DNA from: the human T2T-CHM13v2.0 reference genome, Homo sapiens
NCBI RefSeq assembly: GCF_009914755.1
Contig: NC_060931.1
DNA: 64,000 bases
Reading direction: 5' to 3' (one strand)
A program made the position numbers and the translations under genes. The notes under the pieces are model-generated. The model was not told where the DNA came from, did no database searches, and was given only the letters and a program-made list of their open reading frames with translations. Numbering within the stretch: the stretch's first letter is position 1; every line of letters starts with the position of its first letter. This document shows, piece by piece, positions 5,340-63,928 of this stretch.

Positions 5340-7274
5340 CAAGGAATAAAATTCGGAAAAAAATTGTAGCTATATAATCAACAGAAGAATATTATTCAGA
5401 ATATATAATTAACTCATATAAATCAATTAGAAAAACAAATAAAAACTAATTTAAAAGTAGGCACCAAGGAGAAAATACAAATGGTGAACTAATGGCTTTT
5501 TTTGTTGAGCCAACAAAAGAGTACTCAAATTAGATCTAGGAAATCCAGATAGACATCAGAATGTAATACATTGAGAGTGAGATGCAAGAACTTCCAGTGA
5601 ACTAGGAAGCTCCAGGCCCTCATTCCCCCATGAAAACATTAAATAAGTAACTAGAGACTGGCTAAAATAACTTTACAAGAGCTATGGAAACCAGCCATAG
5701 GTCTACAGCAATTAAGTTCTGAATCCAAAAAAAAAAAAGCTGTGTTTGAAATGATTAAAAAAAAAAAATTGTGGCATTTTTACTCACCACTGTCCCACCT
5801 CCTTCCCCATGCAGCTCTGGAAGATTCCATCCTACACAACTGAGAGAACAGAGCAGACTAAATTTATGACCTTCTGACCTGTATGAGAGTCCCATGCCTG
5901 TGGGATTGGTTTGTGATGGGTGCAGTTCCTGAAAACCACAAGGAGACAACAAAGGGGAACATAGGTGGGGCAAGAGATTTCCTGAAAAATATAACATAAC
6001 ATGTAAAGCCCAGAGAAGCAGCAGGAGTGAGCCTCTTAGAGAAGAAGATATCTAAAAGCAGCCATGTATACAGAGGATTCAGAAAAAAAGCACATGCTCA
6101 GGACCAAGCATAAGAAAAGATGTTCCACATCACTAAGCGTAAGAGAAAAACAAATCAAAGCTACAATGAGATATCAGCTCACAACCATTAGCACAGACAC
6201 TATTTAAAAAACAGAAAATATTTATTGGTCATGATGTGGAGAAATTGAAATCATACTTGGTGGAAATGTAAAATGGTGAAGCTACTATGAAAAACAATAC
6301 AGAGCTTCCTCAAAAAATTAAAAATAGAATTACCATGTGATCAGTTAATCCTGCTTTTGGGTATATATCCAAAAGTATTGAAAGCAGGATCTCTAGGAAG
6401 TATTGCATATCCATGCACCCATGTCCATTGTCACATTATTCACAATGGCCAAAAGGTGGAAACAACTCAGATTTTCACTGAGAGATGGGAAAAGTGTTAG
6501 ATCTGATAAATTCAGCAAAGTAGTAGGATACAAAATTGATACACAAAAATCAGTTATGTTTGTGTACATTAACAATAAACAATCCAAAAGGGAAATTAGG
6601 AAAATAGTTCCATTTAAAATACAATCAAATAATATTTAGGCATAAACTCAACCAAGGTGGTGGAATAATGTATACTATAAATTACCAAAAATTGTTGAAA
6701 AAAATTCAAGAAGACACAAATAAATAGAAAGACATATCATGTTCATGGGTTGGAACACAATATTAAAGTGTTAACACCACACAAAGCTATTGATTCAATG
6801 CAATCTCTATCAAAATCCCAATAACATTTTTTTTTGTGAAAAACAAAAATCTTTCTCAAGAGACTCCAAATAGCCAAAATATTGAAAAAGAAAAACAAAG
6901 TTGAAAGTCTCACATTTCCTGATTTTAAAACTTACTACAAAGCTGCAATAATCAAAACAGTGTGGTGCTGCCAAAAAGACAGACATACAGACTAATGGAA
7001 CAGAATAGAAAGCCCAGTAATAAATCCTTGCATACAGGGACAAATGATTTTCACAAAGGATGCCAAGATCATTCAATGGGGAAAGAACAATTTTTTTCAC
7101 CCAATGGTATTGGGAAAACTGGATATACACAGACAACTAAATGAAGTTGGATTCTTAGACCATATACAAAAATTAACTCAAAATGAATCAAGGACTTAAG
7201 AGCTAAAACTGTAGAACATTTAGAAGATGACACTGGGGAAAAGCTTCAGGATACTGCATTTTACAATGATTTCT
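5340..7274 (+). mobile_element. Patchwork of old L1M fragments; 6490-7274 is the ORF2 3' part hosting the L1-GNL2 insert
   Basis: L1 ORF2 motifs (caaaattgatacacaaaaatcagtt, aaacttactacaaagctgcaataatcaaaacag). Confidence 0.85.
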
Positions 7275-13403: not shown

Positions 13404-14900
13404 TGATTTCTTTTACGTGATACCAAAAGCACAAGAAATAAAGATTGGGTTCTATAAAAATAAAACCTTTTGTGTATCAAAGGACATTATCAAATATAGT
13501 GAAAAGGCAACCCACAATATAGGAGAAAATATTTGCAAATCACATGTCTGATAAGTGGTTAACATTTTTTTTTTGAATTTTAAACTCCTATAATTCAACA
13601 AACAACCCAATTAAAAAATGGGAAGAAGACTTGCATAGGTGTTTCTCCAAAGAAGATACACAAATGGTCAATAAGTATATAAACAGATGCTCAACACTAC
13701 TAACCATTAGGGAAATGCAACTCAAAACCATAATGAGATACCACTTCAAACACAATGAGACGACAAGTATCAAGAAAATGGAAAATAACTAGTGTTGGTG
13801 AGGACATGGAGAAATTGTGAGCCTTGTGCATTGCTGATGGGAATGTAAAATGGTATAGTGGCTATGGAAAATCAGTATGGTGGCTCTTCAAGAAATTAAA
13901 ATAGAATTGCCATATGAATCAGCAATCCCATTTCTGGGTATATGCTCAAAAGAATTGAAAGAAGTGTCTCAAAGAGACATTTGTATGCATTATGGACTTA
14001 ACGTTTGTGTCCCTCCAAATTGATATATTAAAGCCCTAATCTCCAATGAGGCAATGTTGGAGATAAGGCCCCTAAGGAGATAAATTTAAATGAGGTAATA
14101 AAGGCAGGGCCCTTATCTGATAAGATTAATCTCCTTATAAGAAAACAGACCAGAAACACTGCTACCTCTTTCTCCATGAATATGCACCAAGGAAAAGCCA
14201 TGTAAGGACAATACCAGAAGGTGGCTGTCTGAAATCAAGAAGAGAGCCCTCTCCAGAAACTGATCTTGGACTTCTAGCATCCAGAATTGTAAGAAAATAA
14301 ATTTCTGTTGTTTAAGCCACCCATTCTATGAAATTTTATTATGGCAGCCTAATATAGTATATATCTAAAATAACTGAAAGCAGGATCTTGCAGGTATTTG
14401 CTTACCTGTGTTTAATGCAGCATTATTCACAATAGCCAACAGCTGGATGTAGCCCAATGCCCATCAGTGAATAAATGAAAAACAAAATGTGTGTATAGGT
14501 ACAATAGAATGTTATTCAGCCTTAAAAAGGAAATTCTGACACATGCTATAACATGGATGAATCTTAAAAATATTGTGCTAAGTGAAATAAGCCAGTCATA
14601 AAAAGACAAATACTATATGATTCCACTTATATGAGGTATCTAGAGTAGTCACATTTATAGAGAAAAAATGTAGAATGGTGGTTTTCAGGTGTTGGAGGGA
14701 GAAGGGAATGGGGAGTTATTATTTAATGGGTATACAATTTCAGTCTAGAAGTTGAAAAAAATTCTAGAGATGGATGGTGATGATGATTTCACAACAGTGG
14801 GACTGAAGTTAATGCCACTGTGTATTTAAATTATACATTTAAATACACTTAAAATGTTAAATTTTATGTTATGTACATTTTACCATAATAAAAAGTGATA
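13404..14900 (+). mobile_element. Continuation and 3' end of the host L1M (interrupted by an LTR)
   Basis: Resumes tgatttcttttacgtgataccaaaagcacaag, collinear with the sequence ending at 7274; L1MB-like 3'UTR. Confidence 0.85.
13990..14355 (+). mobile_element. MaLR solo LTR (MST/MLT1A-like)
   Basis: tatggacttaacgtttgtgtccc...ttggacttctagcatccagaattgtaagaaaataaatttctgttgtttaagccaccc. Confidence 0.85.
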
Positions 14901-15829
14901 TATACACATTCATATATTTAAATTAGCTAATATCTACAATTTGATTATGCCAAGAATTCACATAGATATGGAATAACAGAGTTTCTTCCACCCTACTGTT
15001 GGAAATGTATTAATAAAACCAACTGTGAAAAATAGTCTGATATATTTTAATTAACTGCATATCTTGTGACCCAATATTAGATAAAGACCTTTAAGAATCT
15101 TGAACAGAATATATAAACAAAAATATTCATTATGGCACTGTGTGTCATAGCAAAAAACTGAGAACAATCAATTTCAACCAACAATAAAACAGATGTGCAC
15201 CCTGATATATTCACATAATGGAAAATTATACAAAAATTTAGAAGTTTTAATAGTGTTATAATCACAAAAGTAGAAACAAATTTCACACATGTGGTCTACA
15301 ATAATATGAATAGGTTAAAATAACTATAACTGGGTATATTTATAATTAGATAAATTCTCAGTCTTGACTGGATAGATTCTCAGTCTTGATATTTAAAAAT
15401 CCAGCTGTATGCTGTTAACACAAAAATATAAGTTTAAGACAAATTAATATATACATATGCAAAGCAATCACAAAATCTCAACCATGACAATTTTATTTTA
15501 TGCGACTGGACAAACCGTTTTAAAATTGGCAGCTTTTAACAAAAATAAAAACAATGATCTCTATACTTAAGACATTTTTGTAAGTTTTAGTAATAATTAT
15601 AGATCAGTAAAATAAAAATCATAATTCTTTAAAAGACGTGTATATATGTATTTTATATGTGTTAATATATGTGTATGTCTATTTATATGTACACATATAA
15701 ATACACAAATTAATATGGTATATACCCCTACTTCATAGACCTGAGGGTAAAGAAACAAAATTATGAAATTATTGAAATAAAATATTAGAGATTTTTTCAT
15801 GCCTATGAGACAGGTAAAACTTTCCTAAG

Positions 15830-17320
15830 AAGAAACAAATATAATTGCAAGGGGTCCAAAATACTCAAAACATATTTAAAAAAATGAACAAAGCTTCCAG
15901 TTGCGATGCCAAATTTCAAAACTTACTACAAAGCTACAATAATCAAAACAGTGTGGTACTAACATAAGGAAATGCCTACCACCAATGAAACAGAATAGTG
16001 CACATAAATAACTCATACATCTAAGACAACTGATTTTTCAACAAGGATACCAAAACAATGAAATGTGGAAAGAACAGTTTCTTCAGCAAATTATTCTGTA
16101 ACAACTAGATAGCCACATGTCAAATAATACAGTTGAACTCCTACAACACACAATTTATAAAAATTAGTTCAAAATGCATTGATGACCACTTTGAAAAAGA
16201 TATAGGGGTAAGTCTTCATGATTTTAGATTTTGCAATGGTTTCTTAGATATGACACCAAAAGCATAAGCAATAAAAAATAAATATAAACTGGACTTCATT
16301 TTAAAACTGGGATGAAATGGACAATATTATGGATGTGAAAAGAAAAGCAGAGAACAGGTAAAAATATTTGCAAAGCATATATTTGCTGAGAATCTAATAT
16401 ATAGACTATCTAAAGAGCCCTTACTACTCAAAAACAAACAAAATCCCAAGTAGAAACACTGGCAGAGGATTTACGTAGACATTTCTCCAAAAAAGATACA
16501 CAAATGGCCACCAAGCAAACAGGAAAAAATGCTCAACATCATTACATCATTCAGGAAATACAAATAAAAACTGAATGAGACACTATTTCACATATACTAG
16601 AATGGTTAAACTTTTTTTTTTTTTTTTTAAAAAGGAAAATAGCAAGTGTTGGCCAGGATGTGAAGAAACAGGTACTCTCATACATCACTAATGGGATTGT
16701 AAAATGGTATATGTCTTGTGAAAAATGGTTTGGCTTATACTCAAAAAGTTAAACACAGAATAAGTGGAAAATAAAGTGGAATGACCCTGTAATTCCACTC
16801 TTGGTATGTACCCAAAAGAACTCTAAATGGGCACTTAAGTATATACTTTTCATGAATGTTCACAGCAACAGTATTCACAATAGCCAAAATATGGAAATAA
16901 CCAAATGTCCATGGATAAACAAATTGTATATATATATAAAATGGGATATTATTCAGCCATAAGAAAGAATGTAGCACTGATACATGCTACATCATAGATG
17001 AATCTCAAAAACATTATGCTAAGTGAAAAAAGCCAGATACAAAATAATACATATTGTTTTATTTTATATGAAATATCCAGAATAAATAAATCCATAAAGA
17101 TAGAAAGCATAGTGATAGTTGCCAGGGGGTAATGGTAGACATGAATGAGGCGTAACTTTTTAATAAGTACGGGGTTTCCTTTTTGAAGTGATAAAATGTT
17201 TTGGAATTTGGTAGAGGTGTTTGCAAAACATTGTGATTGTACTAAATGCTATTAAATTGTTCACATTAAAATGGTGAATTTTAATTAATGTGAATTTCAA
17301 CTCAATTAAAAAAATAAAGA
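15830..17320 (+). mobile_element. L1M ORF2 end and 3'UTR
   Basis: Typical L1 3' sequence ending tgtgaatttcaactcaattaaaaaaataaa. Confidence 0.85.
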
Positions 17321-17599
17321 GAGCTTCGTTTGATCTGTGGACCAATATAAATTGGTGTGACACATGTTTATTTGATAATCAAAAGGAGAGGTCAGTCAAT
17401 CATGCATAAAACAATAAATGGTTAAAAGCAGTGGATTTAATGAATGACATAAATGAGCAGGTCAAAGATACCTGACAAACATTCCACACAATATATACAA
17501 AGAACTCCACTTTTAGGCACTACAGAGTCAAACTGCTATTTATTTCCTGTATAGCTTTGAGAACTTCTCTATGAGTTTAAAATAAAGGTAAATGAGTTT

Positions 17600-21991
<4,392 letters not shown>

Positions 21992-35956: not shown

Positions 35957-38900
35957 GCCAGGCATGGTGGTGCATGCCTGTAGTTCCAGCTACTCAGGGG
36001 GCTGAGGTGAGAGGATCACTTGAGCCCAGGGGGTTGAGGATTCAGTGAGCCACGATTGTGTCACTGTAGTCCAGCCTCACTGACAAGGCAAGACCCCATA
36101 TCAATAAAAAAATTTGAAAACCCACAAAAGAAACAGATAATACCTTGAGACAAGTGAAAATGCAAACACAACATACAAAGACTTATGCCATCCAGCAAAA
36201 GCAGTGGTAAGAGGGATATTTAGAGCTGGAAACACATATATGAAACATGAGAAAAGACTGCTAATCAGTAAACCGATTTACACCTTAAGGAACCAGGAAA
36301 AGGAGAGGAAACTGAACACAGAATCACCATAATGAGGGAAATAAATTAGGAAATAGAAAAATAATTTAAAAGAAACAAAGGTTGGTTCTTTGAGAAGATC
36401 AAAAAAGGGAACAAACTTTAGCTAAATTGACTAAAAATGAAAGAGAGGACCCAAATTACTAAAAATCATAATTTAAAAGTGAGGATATTACTATTGATTT
36501 TATACAAACAGAAAGAAAGATAACAAAATACTATGAACAACTGTATGCCAACAAATTGGATAACTTAGATGATACTAAAAACTTTATAGAAATATATACT
36601 CTATAAAAAATGACTCAAAAGAAACAGAAAATGTGAACAGATTTATAACTAGTACAGCAATTGAATCAGTAATCAAAAACTTTCTTATAAAGAAGAGCCC
36701 AGCAAGATGGTTTCACTAGTAATTTCAAACAAACATTTAAAGAAGTAACACAAATCCTTTACAAACAATCTGAATGTTTGCAGAGGAAGGAACTTCCTAA
36801 CTCATTCTATGAGGCCAATATGATCATGACACCCAAGCCAGGAAAAGACATTACAAGAAAACTACAGACCAATATCCCTTATTATTACTGATCCAAAATT
36901 CAATAAAATATTAGAAAACAAAATTCAATAACATACTAAAGGACTATATACAATGACCAAGAAGGTGTTATTTTCAGAATGTATGAATGGTTTAACATGA
37001 AAAAAAATCAATGTAATACACTACGTTAGCAGAATGAAAAGGAAAAAAACTACAAGCTCATGTCAATTGATGCAGAAAAACCACTTGTCCAATGTCAACC
37101 CCTTTTTTCTGATAAAAATATTCAACAAAGTATGAATAGAATAATACTCTCTCATCATGGTAAAGACTTTATATGAAAAATTCACAGCTAACATCACATT
37201 CAATTATGAAATGATGAAAGCATTTCCCCTAAGATTAATAACAGGGCAAGGGTGTCTACTATCCTCACTTATATTTAACATAATATTGAAAGTTCTAGCC
37301 AGAGAAATTGGGCAAGAAAAATAAATAAAAGACATCCATCTGGAAAGGAAGCAAAATTATCTGTTCACAGATGACATTATCTTTTTTGTATAAATCCTCA
37401 AGATTCTAAAAAAAGCAAAATCTTTTATATCTAATACATATTCAGTAAAGGTGCAACATACAAAATCAACTTGCAACAACAGCTGCATTTCTGTACATTA
37501 GCAATGAATAATCCAATGGAATTTAAGAAAACTCCATTTACAGTAACATTAAAAAGAATACAAGGCTTAGGAATAAATGTATGCAAGGAGGCAAAAGGCT
37601 TGTACACTGAAATCTATAACATACTGCTGAAACAAATTAACTCATAAATAACTGGAAAGGCATTCTGTGGTCATGGATTGGTAGACTTAATATTATTAAG
37701 ATGGCAATACTACCCAAAGCAATCTACAGATTCAGTATTGTCCCTATCAAAATGTCAAGCATATTTTTGCAAAAAATAGGAAACCTCATCCTAAAATTCA
37801 CATGGAATCTCAACGTACCACAAATAGAACAATCTTAGAAAAGAAAAAAGTTGAAGAATCCACATTTCCTGATGTCTAAACGTATTACAAAGCTACAGTA
37901 ATAAAAACAGTGTGATAATGGCATAAAGGCAGACATACAGACCAATGGAACAGAATAGAGGGCCCAGAAAAAAAAAACCACTTGTATAAATTGTCAACTG
38001 ATTTTGACAAGGAAGCTGAGACTATTCCATGGGTAAAAGATTGTCTTTTCAACAAATGGTGCTGTCAAAACTGGATATCCACATGCAAATGAATGAAGTT
38101 GGACCCTTAACTTACACAGCAAACAAGTAATTTAAACTAAGTAACACACCTAAGCTAAAACTTTAAAACTCTTAGAAAGCCTAATGACACTGGGGGAAAG
38201 TCTGATGACACTGAATTTGGCAACTACTCCTTGGATATGGTAACAAAACCATAGACAACAAAAGAAAAAATCTGGACTTAACTCCAATTGGACAAATTCA
38301 GTGTCATCAGACTTTCCCCCAGAAAAGTCTGATGACACTGAATTTGGCAATTACTGCTTGGATATGGTAACAAAACCATAGGCAACAAAAGAAAAAAAAA
38401 TGGACTTAACAAAAATTTATAGCTTTGTGCACTTAGGACATTATCAAGACAGTAAAAATACAACTCACAGAATGGGGAGAAATATTTGAAAAATCACACA
38501 TCTGATAAGCTATTAATGTCTAGAATATATAAAGAACTCCTAAAACTCAATAACAAAAAAGGCAACCTAATTTAAAATTGGACAAAAGACTTAAATAGAC
38601 ATTTCTCCAAAGAAGATATACAAATGGCCAATAAACACATGAAAAGATGCTCAATATCAATTAGTCATTAGAGAAATGCAAATCAAGTCCACAATGAGGA
38701 ACACTTCACATTCACTAAGACGGCTAGTGTAAAAAACAAACAAGTAAGTGTTGGTTTGGAAATGGAGAAACTGGAAGGCTTGTATATTGCTGGTGGTAAT
38801 ATAAAATGGTGCAGCTGTTGTGGAAAAGTTTGACCTCTCATAGAATGACCATATGATTCAGTAATTCCACTCCTAGGTATATATGCAAATATTTGAAAGT

Positions 38901-39382
38901 TGGGATTCATATAATTGTATACTAATGCTAATAAAAGCATCCTTCATGATTGCCAACAGATAGAAACAACCCAAATACCCATTAATAAATGAACAGGTAT
39001 ATGTAGTAGATATTATTCTACCTTAAGGAATTTAGTTCTCATACAGGCTACCACATGAATGAACCTTAAAAATATTTTAACTAAAATAAGCCAGACACAA
39101 AAAGACAGATACTGTATGATTACACTTGTATAAGGTACCAAAAGTAGACAAATTCATAGAGACCGAAAATAGAATGAAGAATACTGGGAGATGAAGGGAA
39201 GGGCTAATGGAGTTATTGTTTAATTAATACAATTTTTGATAGTCATACAAAAAAGATCCTAAATGGATAGTGGTGATGATTGCACAATATTGTGAATGTA
39301 CTTACCACTACTGAATTTTACACTTAAAAATGGTTAAAACTGTATATTTTATGCCATGCATAATTTACCAATAAAAAAAAAG
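35310..39382 (+). mobile_element. ~4-kb L1MB-like element (ORF2 EN to 3'UTR)
   Basis: Continuous decayed ORF2 including ctgttcacagatgacattatc (FADD-region homologue, ~37365); ends in an A-rich tail. Confidence 0.9.
35792..36112 (+). mobile_element. AluJ-like with (AAAT)n expansion in the middle linker
   Basis: ggatcacttgagcccagg; linker microsatellite at 35915-35956. Confidence 0.92.
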
Positions 39383-43200: not shown

Positions 43201-45026
43201 CAGTTTAAAGAGAAAAAAATAGGAAGGGATCTGGGGTATTATGTCAAAGAATGCTACTTGATCTACAAGTTTGTTTGTTTTTTGTTTTTTGTTTTTTTTT
43301 TTTGAAAAACTAGCAGAAATAACATGGGAGAAAGTTGAATATACAAGCTATACAAAAATATAATAGAAATTGAAAAGTAAAGCATTTCAGAATCTGTGTT
43401 TTCACAAACTTCTTTTAAAAACAACGTAATATTAGGCTAGTCTTTGGTTGTAGTATATTATATAATTTATAAAATTATAAGACACTGATAATTCACACAT
43501 TTAATAAGTCTCTCTTTAAAGTGCCAAAACTGATTAACAAAATGTTGTACATTATAAGGAATGGTAAATGTCAAATCACAGAGAAGCTTTTCAGTATAAA
43601 TTAATTTAAAAGTACTAAATAAGTTAGGAAAAAGAAAAATAATATAGGTGGAAATGTTAAGTCTTCACTAATTTATAAGGAAACAAGCTTTCTCTTCCAG
43701 AAGGAAAAGAACAAATCTGGTGCTTATTTCACCTACTACGGAGAAAGTAAACAAACTTCCCTTATGTCATAAAATGCTTTGTCTCAATCTTGTTTGTTGA
43801 ATATAAACATGGTATATCATTTTATTCTGGACAGAAGTTGTTTCATGAGATACCTCATATATTTTGTGAGCTCATCATCATTTTATCTAGTAGTCAGTTT
43901 CATACTTGAATGGATTTTAAATTCATTTACTATGTTAATTTTGTCTTTTAACTAGTGTTATCCTAATTTAAAATACAGGGTAATTTGTTAAATCATTTTC
44001 TATTCAGAGAATTATTTAAGTATCTTTTTGAGTAGTTATATGCTTTTCTAAAATGTTAGGGTGATAACCTCCTGTAAAATAAACAAAAATTATTATTATC
44101 CTATGGGGTCCTGAATGTTACATTAAGGGAACTGAATCTTGCTTAATAGCTTACAGGAATGATAACACAAAGATAATTATAAATTAAAATGTTTATTAAC
44201 CATAAGATGGCACAAAATGAAATTTAGCAACTCACTAATTAATAAGTCTATTGAGCAATGATGATGAGCCCATAAAATCCAAAAAATAAATTTTATTTTA
44301 TTTAAGCAAAATTCCCCCCCATAAACTTGATGCTCATTCATGCTATTGCTTGGATGGTACTTGCTATCCTGGTATCCTGCAAAGTAACTTCCTCAAGACT
44401 CAAACACAAGTCTCACCGAGAAAGCCGTATCACAATTACATTGAACCCTTGTGATCTATCCTATTGCAAACTCAATTTTCTTTATATAATCTTCTTGTAT
44501 TTTTCCCTTAACAGTCTCTTGTTCCCTAATTGTTTCATGGATGCATCTCCTAAGTATATAAACTCCGTGGGCAGAGATCAAATATTCAGGAGCACAAAAC
44601 AGTATTTTAGAGACAGAAAATATTTTTGAGATTCATGTTAAATTATCTCATATACTTCTTATGACAAGAATAAAAACAATTACCTTGATCAAATAGTGTA
44701 GTACATAATAAGTTGAGTGTAATCATTACATGGTGAAATTAGAAAACATTACAATTGTGTTGTTACCCAAAGTTTTTAAATACAAAAAAAATTTTTAATG
44801 ATAAAATTATGTGTAATTCTGACATTCAAAACTACTACTTCACTTGAAAGAGCTATGTTTGACAATTTCAAAATACTTATAATTGAGGAGATGCAAATAT
44901 TTTAACAATTTTAGTTTAAGTCTTCTTTGAATAATGATATAAATACATGTAATAGCTTAACTACTATGTTCCAGTTTATTTTTTGGGTATTTCTATGTTT
45001 TTCTTTATCCTTATCTGTGTTCTGGA

Positions 45027-45522
45027 GTTATACATATATATATATATATATATAAAATATATATAATATAATATATTATATATTACATATTATGTATATT
45101 ACATATCTGTGTTCTGGATATATATCATATATTAGATAATATATAAATATATATTAATATATTTATATTATATATTATATATTAATATAATTTTATATTA
45201 TATATTATATATATTATAATATAATTTTATATTATATTATAATATATATAATATAATTTTATATTATATATAATTATAATATAATTTTATATTATAATTA
45301 TATATTATTTTTATATTATAATTATATATTATATTATAATTTAATTAATAAAATTAAATTGTATTATGTTATATGTTATATAATATAAAATTATATAATA
45401 TAAATATATAATATAAATATATAATACATATAATATAAATATATAATATATATAATATAAATATATAATATATATAATAAAATATATAATATATAACATA
45501 TATTATATAATACATAATATAA
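45027..45522. repeat. AT-only low-complexity array 1
   Basis: Degenerate (TA)n, (TATAA)n and (ATATAATATAA)n. Confidence 0.95.
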
Positions 45523-45585
45523 AAATTAATTTTTCAGTCTTAAAAGAGTTTAAAAAATTTATACTAATATCACTAAATTTATACC

Positions 45586-46015
45586 TGTCTTAGTCTGTTT
45601 CATATTGCCATAAGAGGATATTTAAGCCTGGATAGTTTATAAAGGAAAAACGTTTATTTGTCTCACGATTCTGATGGCTGAAAAGTTTGAGACTGGGCAT
45701 TCGGTGAGGGCCTCGGGCTGCTTCCACCCATGGCAGAAGGTGAAAGGCAGCCTGAGTGTGCAGAACTCAAATGGTGAGAGAGGAAGCCAGAGAGGGGGGC
45801 AGGTGCCAGCCTCTTTTGTATAGCCAGCTCTCACAGGAACTAACAGAATTAGAACTCGGTCACCCCGAGGGAGAATATTAATCTATTCATGAGAGATCTG
45901 CTCCCACGACCCGAACCTCTCCCACTACGCCTTACATCCCAACATTGCCACACTTGGAACTAAATTTAAACATGAGATTTTGTGGGAACAAACAAACCAT
46001 AGCCAAATCATAGCA
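45586..46015 (-). mobile_element. MaLR (MST-like) solo LTR
   Basis: tgtcttagtctgttt...caaatcatagca; TSD atacc/atatc. Confidence 0.9.
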
Positions 46016-46296
46016 ATATCATTCTCATTAAGTCATTTCTAATTGTTCTTTTCTCCTTTCTTTCTGCAATTTAAGTTAGATTAAAAGCCTTTTCATAAAA
46101 TAGACTACTGACTATTCCTTTTACTTTGTTTTCTTTGATTTGGCTAGAGTTATCTTTATAACTTTTTGTGTTTTGTTATTTAAATATATGAACTTTCACA
46201 AAAATATAGTACAAAGTTATATTAGGAAATAGAATACAAATTAAACAAAGAAATAACTGCCAACTGTTAACTTTGTAACTATTTTTAAAATTGTGA

Positions 46297-47545
46297 TTAT
46301 ATATATTTTATATATATAAAATCACTGGTTTTAAATATCAGTGATTATTTCTATCATATAATGTATGTTATATATAATGTAATATATATTTATATACAAA
46401 TTGTAAATATTTATATATGTTATATATAATATAGATCAGATATAATATATATTATATAATATATATTATATATAATTATATATATTATATAATATATATT
46501 ATATATAATTATATATATTATATATAATTATATATATTTTATAATTATATATATTTTATATTATATATAATTATATATAAAATATATATAATATATAATA
46601 TAAAATATAGATAATATATATTATGTACATATAATATATATAATTATATATAATATATATTATATATAATATAAATTATATATGGTATATTATATAATAT
46701 ATATTATAATTTTATATAATTATATAAATTATATATTATATAATTATATAAATTATATATTATATAATTATATAAATTATATATTATATAATTATATAAA
46801 TTATATATTATATAATTATATAAATTATATATTATATAATTATATAAATTATATATTATATTATATATTATATTATATATTATATAATATCTTGATATAA
46901 AATATATATTATATATTATATATAATATATTATATATAATATAAATTATATATGGTATATTATATATTATATATTATAATTTTACATAATTATATGAATT
47001 ATATGGATTATATAATTATATGAATTATATGGATTATATAATTATATGAATTATATGGATTATATAATTATATGAATTATATGGATTATATAATTATATG
47101 AATTATATGGATTATATAATTATATGAATTATATGGATTATATAATTATATGAATTATATGGATTATATAATTATATGAATTATATGGATTATATAATTA
47201 TATGAATTATATGGATTATATAATTATATGAATTATATGGATTATATAATTATATGAATTATATGGATTATATAATTATAAATATTTATATATTAATATA
47301 AATATTTATATAAAATATATAATATATAATATATATTATATATAATTTATTATTATATATATTTATTATATATATTTATATTGTATATAATGTAATATAT
47401 AATATATAATATAATTATATTATATATTTATATTATATATTATATATAATATATAATTATACATAATATATATAATATATAATTATATAATATATAATAC
47501 ATAATATATAATTATATATAATATATAATACATAATATATATAAT
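46297..47545. repeat. AT-rich array 2 with 24-bp and 26-bp minisatellite blocks
   Basis: 24-mer ttatataattatataaattatata about 6 times (46711-46860); 26-mer ttatataattatatgaattatatgga 11 times (GG at 47005 to 47265, period 26). Confidence 0.95.
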
Positions 47546-47913
47546 CACTGATTTTAAAAAGTTACAAAGTTAACAGTTGGAAGTCATTTGTTTAATTTGT
47601 ATTCTATTTCCTAATATTCCTGTGTACTATATTTTTGTGAAACTTCATATTTTTAAACAATAATGAAACACAAAAAAATTATAAAGATAACTGTAGCCAA
47701 GTCAAAGAAAACAAAGCAAAAGGAAGACCCTCACTGAATGCTCAATCTCAAACTTCTCAGCCATCAGAATCGTGAGACAAATAAACTTTTTTCCTTTATA
47801 AACTATCAAGGCTTAAGTATTCTCTTATGGCAATATGAAACAGACTAAGACAGGTATAAATTTAGTGATATTAGTATAAATTGTTAAAACTCTTTTAAGA
47901 CTGAAAATTAATT
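47541..47913. repeat. Inverted copy of 46115-46300 joined to an inverted copy of 45524-45710
   Basis: Direct reverse-complement comparison. Confidence 0.95.
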
Positions 47914-48500
47914 GGCCCATTAATCTCTCAATAATAGAAATGCAAAGACTTTGAATTCATGTGCTCAATCTAAGTCAACAGCCTCTACAGAACTCTCTTC
48001 TATAGTAAAGATGAAAAAGAAAGAATGAATGTCAGAGAGCAGCTCAGATCCTGTAGTGCTAGGACCAAAAGTTAGAAAAAACAATTGGTAATAAAACAAT
48101 TCATATACTTATTTCACAAGGAAGGAAAAAGTCACAAAGATATCTACTGTAGACTATACAAACCTAAACTCATCAATAGTAGATTCTAAAAGATATATTA
48201 ATTGGCTTTTTTTAAAGTCAGGAACTCTAAGTGACTCATAACTATTATTTGTGTTTCCTCCCAGATAACTGCCTAATGATCCTAAACTCCCTTGCTGTAA
48301 TATTAATACCAAGGCCAAAATTAAGCCAGACTGTTTTTCTTTCACATCTTTAGATTCACTTTTCAAATACACTACTTTAAATAAACTATGAAAAAATACC
48401 TAAATGATAGTAAAAATAAGTGATATGCATTCACTTAGGCTTAATGAAAACACATAAATTTTCAACAATATAAAACATGAAATCATAATTCATTACATAC

Positions 48501-48678
48501 CACAGCACTCAGGACATTTTGGATGTTGCTGGACATTCATTCCATATCCTGGAAAGCAGCGATTAATCCAAACCATTTGGAGAGTACCTTCAATATAGTA
48601 TATTTGAGGTAATTGTTCTGCACGTCTGCCAAGAATTTCTACTTGTTGATTAAAAAATCTCTCTATGAGATTTTTAGC
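48501..48678 (-). CDS. ZPBP: ZPBP penultimate coding exon (178 bp)
   Basis: Minus strand reads tttatattttAG|GCT AAA AAT...TGC TGT G|GTatgt and translates [59 protein letters not shown] plus 1 nt. Recognised as human ZPBP; the phase matches the terminal exon. Confidence 0.97.
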
Positions 48679-63370: not shown

Positions 63371-63787
63371 TAAATGCCCTTATTTTAACAGTAGATACCT
63401 TGTGAAGCTGAGAGTTCAATTTGCTTTGTAATTTGGCCAGTCACAGGATGGGATCCTGCAATTGATATTCGGCCCTGCAGCTATAGGAGATAAGACTCTC
63501 CGCTTCAGGGCACACCTGGAACGTCTGAAGCCATTTATGTGATACTTGAGCCGGGAATTCAAATATCTGAGCTAACCCTTTCCTTTTACTATTTTGTCCA
63601 GTGACATTAGGAAAAAATAAGAAATATCATTGAATTCCATAAATTTTCAAAAATGTTCAGAAGTATTATACAGAGTCACCAGGCTCCTTGCTTCTTATAA
63701 GTGATTAACTACAAGTATCCACAGTACATAATTTTCACATCTCAATAAATACTTCCTGCTACAGACTCTCAGTGCTCTCTTTAATAT

Positions 63788-63928
63788 GAGAATCAGAGTA
63801 ATTAGTATCTTTAAATCTGGTAAGACTAGAGAGCCAATTCCAGAAACTCCAGAACCAGATGAGATTCAGAGTGATTAGTATCTTTAAATCTAGTAAGACT
63901 AGAGAGCCAATTCCAGAAACTCCAGAAC
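63788..63928. repeat. 73-bp-period tandem duplication at the ERVL gag start
   Basis: gagaatcagagtaattagtatc...tccagaac is repeated at 63788 and 63861. Confidence 0.92.

What the first reader, a model, noticed from the sequence alone, without database searches (positions are those of the whole stretch)
45524..47913. 2.4-kb inverted duplication around an AT-rich array (PATRR-like) next to a ZPBP exon
Seen: 47541-47725 is an inverted copy of 46115-46300, and 47728-47913 is an inverted copy of 45524-45710. The right arm skips the ~400 bp between them (junction aggaa-ga-ccctcac). The centre is ~1.25 kb of self-complementary TA-rich DNA, and a second TA array abuts the left arm. The arms include part of the MST LTR and its flank and differ at only about 8 of 125 LTR positions, so the event postdates the LTR insertion. 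Known: palindromic AT-rich repeats and long (TA)n tracts extrude cruciforms and are fragile. Inference: this is a fold-back repair scar from breakage in the TA array. It could form DNA cruciforms or intronic dsRNA about 590 nt downstream of the exon donor at 48500.
Basis: partly seen in the sequence, partly recalled or inferred. Interest (0 to 1): 0.7.

Follow-up and report, generated by a model that had tools for sequence, protein, structure and literature searches.

The report
Old inverted copy scar in ZPBP
An intron of the human sperm gene ZPBP holds a real but worn back-to-front copy of about 375 bases around an AT-rich repeat; it is likely a harmless, tens-of-millions-of-years-old DNA copying error, and its centre is not the near-perfect palindrome found at known translocation hotspots.

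Summary
The inverted duplication is real. 45524-45713 matches 47725-47913 (178/189) and 46115-46300 matches 47541-47725 (about 87% with gaps). The right arm lacks 45714-46114 and joins with 1 nt of microhomology, not a 2-nt insert. It is not a PATRR: the arms differ at 6.8% of sites, and the 1.24-kb centre is a compound VNTR with no on-axis symmetry beyond its first ~100 nt and no TA run over 10 nt. The divergence argues against an assembly artefact and suggests an old event (roughly 15-45 My, recalled rate). It is best read as a local template-switch scar. One test of that reading was negative, and TA arrays showed no excess of local inverted copies (2/51 vs 2/42 controls). The complete LTR lies sense to ZPBP, and its poly(A) hexamer is predicted to pair with the right arm in pre-mRNA. 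That is the only functional lead, and it is untested. No primate genomes were available.

The parts
45029..45523 (.). TA1: degenerate TA-rich array abutting the left arm; its last 18 nt (45504-45521) equal the end of TA2
45521..45534 (.). 14-bp perfect palindrome at the TA1/A junction (only the inner 8 bp are palindromic at the A' end); candidate fold-back centre
   Evidence: read from the junction stretches printed; weak, because A-rich
45524..45713 (+). Arm A: 62 bp of unique flank plus the first 128 bp of the LTR
45586..46015 (-).
45653..45658 (-). LTR poly(A)-type hexamer (AATAAA) on the ZPBP sense strand, inside arm A
   Evidence: present at the aligned place in 7 of 7 family copies; paired in the MFE fold
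45714..46114 (+). Segment B (rest of the LTR plus 99 bp of flank), present only on the left
46115..46300 (+). Arm C: unique AT-rich sequence
46293..46348 (.). Nested micro fold-backs at the C/TA2 border: the border motif recurs forward, inverted, forward
46301..47540 (.). TA2: compound AT-rich VNTR, 94.6% AT; 24-mer x6.5 (46705-46860), 26-mer x12 (46975-47285), a ~115-bp direct duplication; not an on-axis palindrome
47541..47725 (-). Arm C': inverted counterpart of C
47725..47913 (-). Arm A': inverted counterpart of A, an LTR stub antisense to ZPBP, joined to C' with 1 nt of microhomology
48501..48678 (-). ZPBP coding exon; GT donor at 48500, 587 nt from A'
   Evidence: hub annotation

Best explanation
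The locus holds a worn inverted duplication around a compound AT-rich VNTR, likely a neutral fossil of an old template switch in which the left block is probably the new copy. Shown: the arms, the missing B segment, the junctions, 6.8% divergence and the non-palindromic centre. Inferred: the ancestor had one TA array followed by C'-B'-A', with the LTR antisense to ZPBP. A stalled or broken end in the array jumped about 0.8 kb ahead to the opposite strand at the AT-rich end of A', copied A-B-C back into the array, and turned round there, where TA microhomology is abundant on both strands. This split the array into TA1 and TA2, like a trimmed inverted triplication. B' was lost at the same time or later, and VNTR growth widened the spacer; both would reduce palindrome instability.
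For: Arms are locus-specific and of similar age (A 11/189, C 14/180 substitutions, Fisher p=0.54). Polarity: (a) TA1 and TA2 end in the same G/C-containing 18-mer in direct sense; 5 of 801 unrelated array-end pairs reach 18 nt. (b) Strand-composition likelihood ratio 1.6-1.8 for the right-arm orientation. (c) The left LTR is sense to ZPBP and the right stub antisense; intronic LTRs are antisense about twice as often (PMC3517506 passages). (d) Two chr4 loci show an inverted local copy sitting inside a TA-rich array with the other copy in unique DNA: L054 278 bp 98%, L057 34 bp 97%. Known mechanism class: short-range template switches are common in apes and enriched at AT-rich DNA (PMC7954356); secondary deletion of palindrome arms after inverted triplication (PMC10766186 passages).
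Against: Whole-array sharing of G/C motifs between TA1 and TA2 is no higher than with unrelated arrays: 17, 25 and 27 of 27 null arrays reach the observed value at k=12, 14, 16 (those arrays were selected for the same 18-mer, which biases against). The end-motif test was post hoc, with 10 end pairs in 2 senses examined, so the family-wise chance is about 6-12%. The left copy is complete with target-site flanks and the right is a chimera, which reads most simply as right-derived. L053 has ~430 bp between two TA arrays with no nearby source copy. TA loci show no excess of local inverted copies (2 of 51 vs 2 of 42, p=0.76). No old repeat spans the junctions to orient them. Neutrality is assumed, not tested.
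Confidence: 0.5

Rival explanations
1. Same mechanism class, opposite polarity. The left block is ancestral; an end in TA2 folded back, copied C, skipped B with 1 nt of microhomology, copied A, stalled at TA1 and rejoined at 47914.
For: The left LTR is whole with 4 of 5 matching flanks. The right arm is a two-piece chimera, typical of iterative templated insertion. TA1 could be the stall point. The TA1/TA2 whole-array test is negative. Two TA arrays can flank unduplicated DNA (L053).
Against: Needs two independent arrays 780 bp apart that end in the same 18-mer. Needs a sense-oriented LTR as the ancestral state. Strand skew leans slightly the other way.
Confidence: 0.35
2. The A/A' duplex is functional in ZPBP pre-mRNA. 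It hides the sense-oriented LTR poly(A) signal or is an ADAR substrate, and this is why the stub was kept.
For: The MFE fold of the gene-sense RNA pairs 179 nt A'/A and 152 nt C'/C, with all 6 hexamer bases paired. Duplex energies are -273 and -202 kcal/mol. A' is transcribed before A. Sense LTRs give strong termination sites (PMC3517506 passages).
Against: The intron has 56 such hexamers on the gene strand in 45.8 kb. The arms have diverged freely (6.8%, several indels). An MFE pairing follows trivially from any inverted copy. No expression or editing data were seen.
Confidence: 0.07
3. A PATRR-like fragile palindrome that extrudes a large cruciform and breaks recurrently in the male germ line.
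For: AT-rich centre (94.6%), less AT-rich ends and a second AT-rich tract alongside, which are two of the three PATRR features (PMC4255720 passages). It lies in an intron of a sperm gene. Local perfect stems reach 18 bp (TA2) and 25 bp (TA1).
Against: Not a near-perfect palindrome. The spacer is 1.24 kb, whereas a 52-bp spacer already removed frequent fork stalling in eukaryotic cells (PMC7999016 passages). Local stems are ordinary: 25 of 51 other TA loci have 18 bp or more. No report of breaks here was found; one leukaemia study saw no hotspot on this side of IKZF1 (PMC5288169 passages).
Confidence: 0.05
4. Assembly artefact.
For: AT-rich repeats are hard to assemble (general knowledge); the VNTR copy numbers could be off.
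Against: The arms differ at 25 of 369 sites plus 6 gap events; a mis-assembly would give near-identical arms.
Confidence: 0.01

Closest known systems
Short-range template switch events (four-point model; PMC7954356)
   Same: A local reverse-complement copy with return to the normal template, in an AT-rich context.
   Different: Their copied tracts have median 12 and maximum 128 nt; here 375-780 nt with a third junction, and older than the great-ape comparisons.
Inverted triplication (ODIRA, DUP-TRP/INV-DUP) trimmed by secondary deletions (PMC10766186)
   Same: An inverted segment between repeated sequence; arm loss and a wider spacer that stabilise a palindrome.
   Different: Described for kb-to-Mb patient CNVs; here sub-kb and apparently old. 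Origin dependence cannot be tested, and the first repeated copy is inferred lost.
PATRRs (PATRR3, 8, 11, 17, 22)
   Same: AT-rich centre, less AT-rich ends, a flanking AT-rich tract, intronic position.
   Different: PATRR8 common alleles are 98-100% identical between arms and symmetric to the centre. Here the arms are 87-94% identical with a 1.24-kb asymmetric VNTR centre.
Pol theta templated insertions (PMC7165422)
   Same: Inverted, locally templated, favoured in AT-rich DNA, with iterative short microhomologies; this fits the micro fold-backs at 46293-46348.
   Different: Typically 3-30 bp from near the break; too short for the main arms.

Membership tests
PATRR | Near-perfect palindrome of several hundred bp, symmetric to the centre | tested here: not met
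   Arms 94% and 87%; centre identity on-axis equals off-axis from 46420 inward; 0 of 492 centre pairs on the axis; feature list from PMC4255720
PATRR | AT-rich centre with less AT-rich ends | tested here: met
   Centre 94.6% AT; arm windows about 19-31% GC or more
PATRR | A second AT-rich region flanking the palindrome | tested here: met
   TA1 45029-45523
PATRR | Cruciform extrusion; translocation breakpoints at the centre; size-polymorphic alleles | not testable with these tools
   No population or break data; searches returned no listing about this locus
Long uninterrupted (TA)n fragile site | Long pure alternating TA run | tested here: not met
   Longest run 10 nt in TA2 and 21 nt in TA1; median 11 and maximum 35 among 51 other loci. 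TA1's run passes the (TA)n>=6 cut-off used in PMC13645644; TA2's does not
Local template-switch inverted duplication | Reverse-complement copy of a nearby locus-specific sequence | tested here: met
Local template-switch inverted duplication | Junctions with short microhomology or short inverted repeats, no long homology | tested here: met
   1 nt at C'|A'; 8-14-bp palindrome at the A end; TA low complexity at the turn
Local template-switch inverted duplication | Direction resolved against an ancestral allele | tested here: inconclusive
   No relatives held; indirect tests mixed
Solo LTR (MaLR type) | TG...CA ends, 5-bp target-site duplication, poly(A) signal near the 3' end, dispersed copies | tested here: met
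   430 bp; flanks 4 of 5; hexamer in 7 of 7 copies (selected by matching the arm, so biased); 38 dispersed hits listed
MST subfamily | Best match to an MST consensus in a repeat library | not testable with these tools

The most novel reading that the evidence does not exclude
The template switch flipped an antisense LTR into the sense orientation of ZPBP, creating a potential premature poly(A) site. The 190-bp antisense stub left upstream in the transcript pairs with it and silences it: a copying error that carries its own RNA antidote. More broadly, degenerate TA arrays would be germ-line sinks for inverted copies of their neighbours (two chr4 analogues).
Probability: 0.05. Interest if true: 0.7.

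Novelty: new member of a known kind. Interest (0 to 1): 0.22.

Why it matters
As a neutral scar it is one more fossil of template switching at AT-rich DNA. It is larger than the catalogued short events and can be dated and oriented with existing primate assemblies. It should not be listed as a PATRR-type risk site. It would matter more if A' suppresses polyadenylation at the sense LTR in a fertility gene, or if a genome-wide count showed that TA arrays capture inverted neighbours; my small survey did not show the latter.

Tried and rejected
PATRR: rejected. Two independent LTR insertions: rejected, because unique flanks are shared and arm identity is far above family identity. Enrichment of local inverted copies at TA arrays: not found, 2 of 51 vs 2 of 42. 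Limits of that survey: 3-kb stretches; TA loci chosen by one 18-mer and only from chromosomes 1-7 (first 100 of 282 matches listed); 11 of the 30 loci dropped as overlapping duplicates; some arrays fill most of the stretch; weaker hits seen (L016 75%, L025 22-33 nt, L052 37 nt) are not counted under the stricter filters. The planned 10-kb stretches were not obtained, so copies farther than about 1.5 kb from an array are unseen. Common ancestry of the whole of TA1 and TA2: not supported. A local source for the L053 inter-array segment: none. Old repeats to orient the junctions: none. Extra array lists were not used. Primate orthologues were unavailable. No citable divergence rate was found, so the age rests on recall.

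Full report
Observation. The order on the + strand is TA1 (45029-45523), A (45524-45713), B (45714-46114), C (46115-46300), TA2 (46301-47540), C' (47541-47725), A' (47725-47913). A/A' has 178 identities, 11 mismatches and 1 gap; C/C' has 14 substitutions and 5 gap events in 180 columns. In a whole-genome search C matched only C', and A matched A' at 94% against 75-84% for 38 dispersed LTR hits. The copy is therefore local and far beyond chance. C' joins A' with one shared base and no insert. Pooled divergence is 25 of 369 (6.8%, 95% CI 4.4-9.8%), and A and C do not differ (p=0.54). This argues against a mis-assembly. By recalled primate neutral rates it corresponds to roughly the human-macaque split, about 15-45 My; two searches gave no citable figure.

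The centre is not a palindrome. TA2 is 94.6% AT with 54 G and 13 C on the + strand. Its longest alternating TA run is 10 nt and its longest perfect stem 18 bp. It contains a 24-mer x6.5, a 26-mer x12 and a ~115-bp direct duplication. In 100-nt windows, identity to the mirror window is 0.82 for the two windows in the arm, 0.70 against an off-axis maximum of 0.68 at 46320, and at background from 46420 on (20 off-axis draws per window). A global left/right alignment scored 466 against block-shuffle maxima of 399, 466 and 461 (40 shuffles each), so a slight residual symmetry is possible. In the RNA fold, 0 of 492 centre pairs lie within 30 nt of the axis. Of the three PATRR features listed in PMC4255720 (passages), the AT-rich centre and flanking AT tract are met and the near-perfect palindrome is not. 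PMC7999016 (passages) reports that longer spacers and lower identity reduce instability. Among 51 other TA loci, 25 have stems of 18 bp or more and 30 have TA runs over 10 nt, so this array is unremarkable.

The LTR. 45586-46015 is 430 bp, TG...CA, with 5-bp flanks matching at 4 of 5 (one search used a start one base off). Seven family copies are 76-81% identical to it, so it is much older than the duplication; PMC1794541 (passages) lists MST at about 75 My. The MST label itself is untested. A poly(A) hexamer lies on the minus strand at 45653-45658 and at the aligned place in 7 of 7 copies (those copies were picked by matching the arm, which may inflate this). So the complete LTR is sense to ZPBP and the A' stub antisense.

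Which copy is new. For the left block being new: TA1 and TA2 end in the same 18-mer (45504, 47491, 47522; 282 matches genome-wide), and 5 of 801 pairs of unrelated array ends share 18 nt or more (6 of 47 ends holding the motif were dropped first; post hoc, family-wise about 6-12%). Strand composition favours the right orientation by 1.6-1.8. Intronic LTRs are antisense about 2:1 (PMC3517506, passages). A 14-bp palindrome sits at the TA1/A junction. L054 (G000:C4:114107020-114110019) shows TA-arm-TA-unique-arm' at 98%, with its two arrays sharing a 33-nt inverted end, and L057 shows a 34-bp inverted copy inside an array. Against: TA1 and TA2 share no more G/C motifs overall than unrelated arrays; L053 has two arrays around an old repeat with no local source; the complete copy is on the left; and no old repeat spans a junction. 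Both polarities need three junctions. I put it at about 60:40 for the left block being new.

Is it a class? Locus-specific inverted copies of at least 30 nt and 85% identity occurred in 2 of 51 TA loci and 2 of 42 control stretches (16 offset, 7 LTR, 19 window tiles; p=0.76). Small local inversions are thus commonplace; one of the control hits is a miniature one in this same intron. Arms over 150 nt were seen in 1 of 51 and 0 of 42. Both TA-locus cases have an arm inside the array, which is suggestive only.

Mechanism and precedent. A switch to the opposite strand, reverse copying and return is the four-point template switch, with 4017 events in great apes, tract median 12 and maximum 128 nt, enriched at AT-rich DNA (PMC7954356, passages and section 8 part 1). 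Trimming of palindrome arms after an inverted triplication is the model of PMC10766186 (passages). TA repeats are known break sites repaired by microhomology (PMC13645644, passages). Pol theta gives inverted templated insertions of 3-30 bp in AT-rich DNA (PMC7165422, passages), which fits the micro fold-backs at 46293-46348 better than the main arms. Every mechanistic step here is inferred from anatomy.

Function. The gene-sense RNA is predicted to pair A'/A (179 pairs) and C'/C (152 pairs), including the hexamer, 587 nt beyond the donor. The intron has 56 such hexamers and the arms show free divergence, so neutrality is the default.

Literature. Searches for this locus (listings only, plus passages of PMC6664780, which concern ZPBP2, and of PMC5288169) found no description. 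General searches were (listings). No supplements were read; event or variant tables, such as the coordinate file of PMC7954356, could list this place, and most subscription papers are outside the library.

Verdict: a real, old, likely neutral local inverted duplication; a new member of a known kind; not a PATRR; interest 0.22.

Noticed in passing
window 38190-38410: Miniature duplication-inversion-duplication with no TA array: 38197-38282 is repeated directly at 38324-38410 (93%), with a 30-bp perfect inverted copy of 38190-38219 at 38293-38322 between them; a textbook short template switch in the same intron.
   Followed up: partly
L054 1366-2920 (G000:C4:114107020-114110019): Younger analogue: a 278-bp inverted copy (98%) of sequence 0.8 kb downstream, set between two TA arrays that share a 33-nt inverted end.
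   Followed up: partly
L057 314-347 and 1559-1592 (G000:C4:136611120-136614119): 34-bp (97%) inverted copy of unique DNA 1.2 kb away, inside a TA/CA array.
   Followed up: partly
L089 915-963 and 1293-1341 (G000:C7:25125260-25128259): 49-bp locus-specific inverted repeat (92%) in a control stretch without a TA array.
   Followed up: no
window 45012-45184: 92-bp unit x1.9 at the left edge of TA1, duplicating a short unique flank into the array.
   Followed up: no
window 63786-63928: 70-bp direct tandem duplication at 96%.
   Followed up: no
window 6100-7260, 13480-19390, 37425-39380: Many 64-71% identical direct fragments, all in one orientation, probably old LINE remnants; family not tested.
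   Followed up: no
L016 755-1002 and 2127-2351: 252-bp inverted pair at 75% around a short TA tract, with no match in the other fetched loci; possibly two old repeat copies.
   Followed up: no
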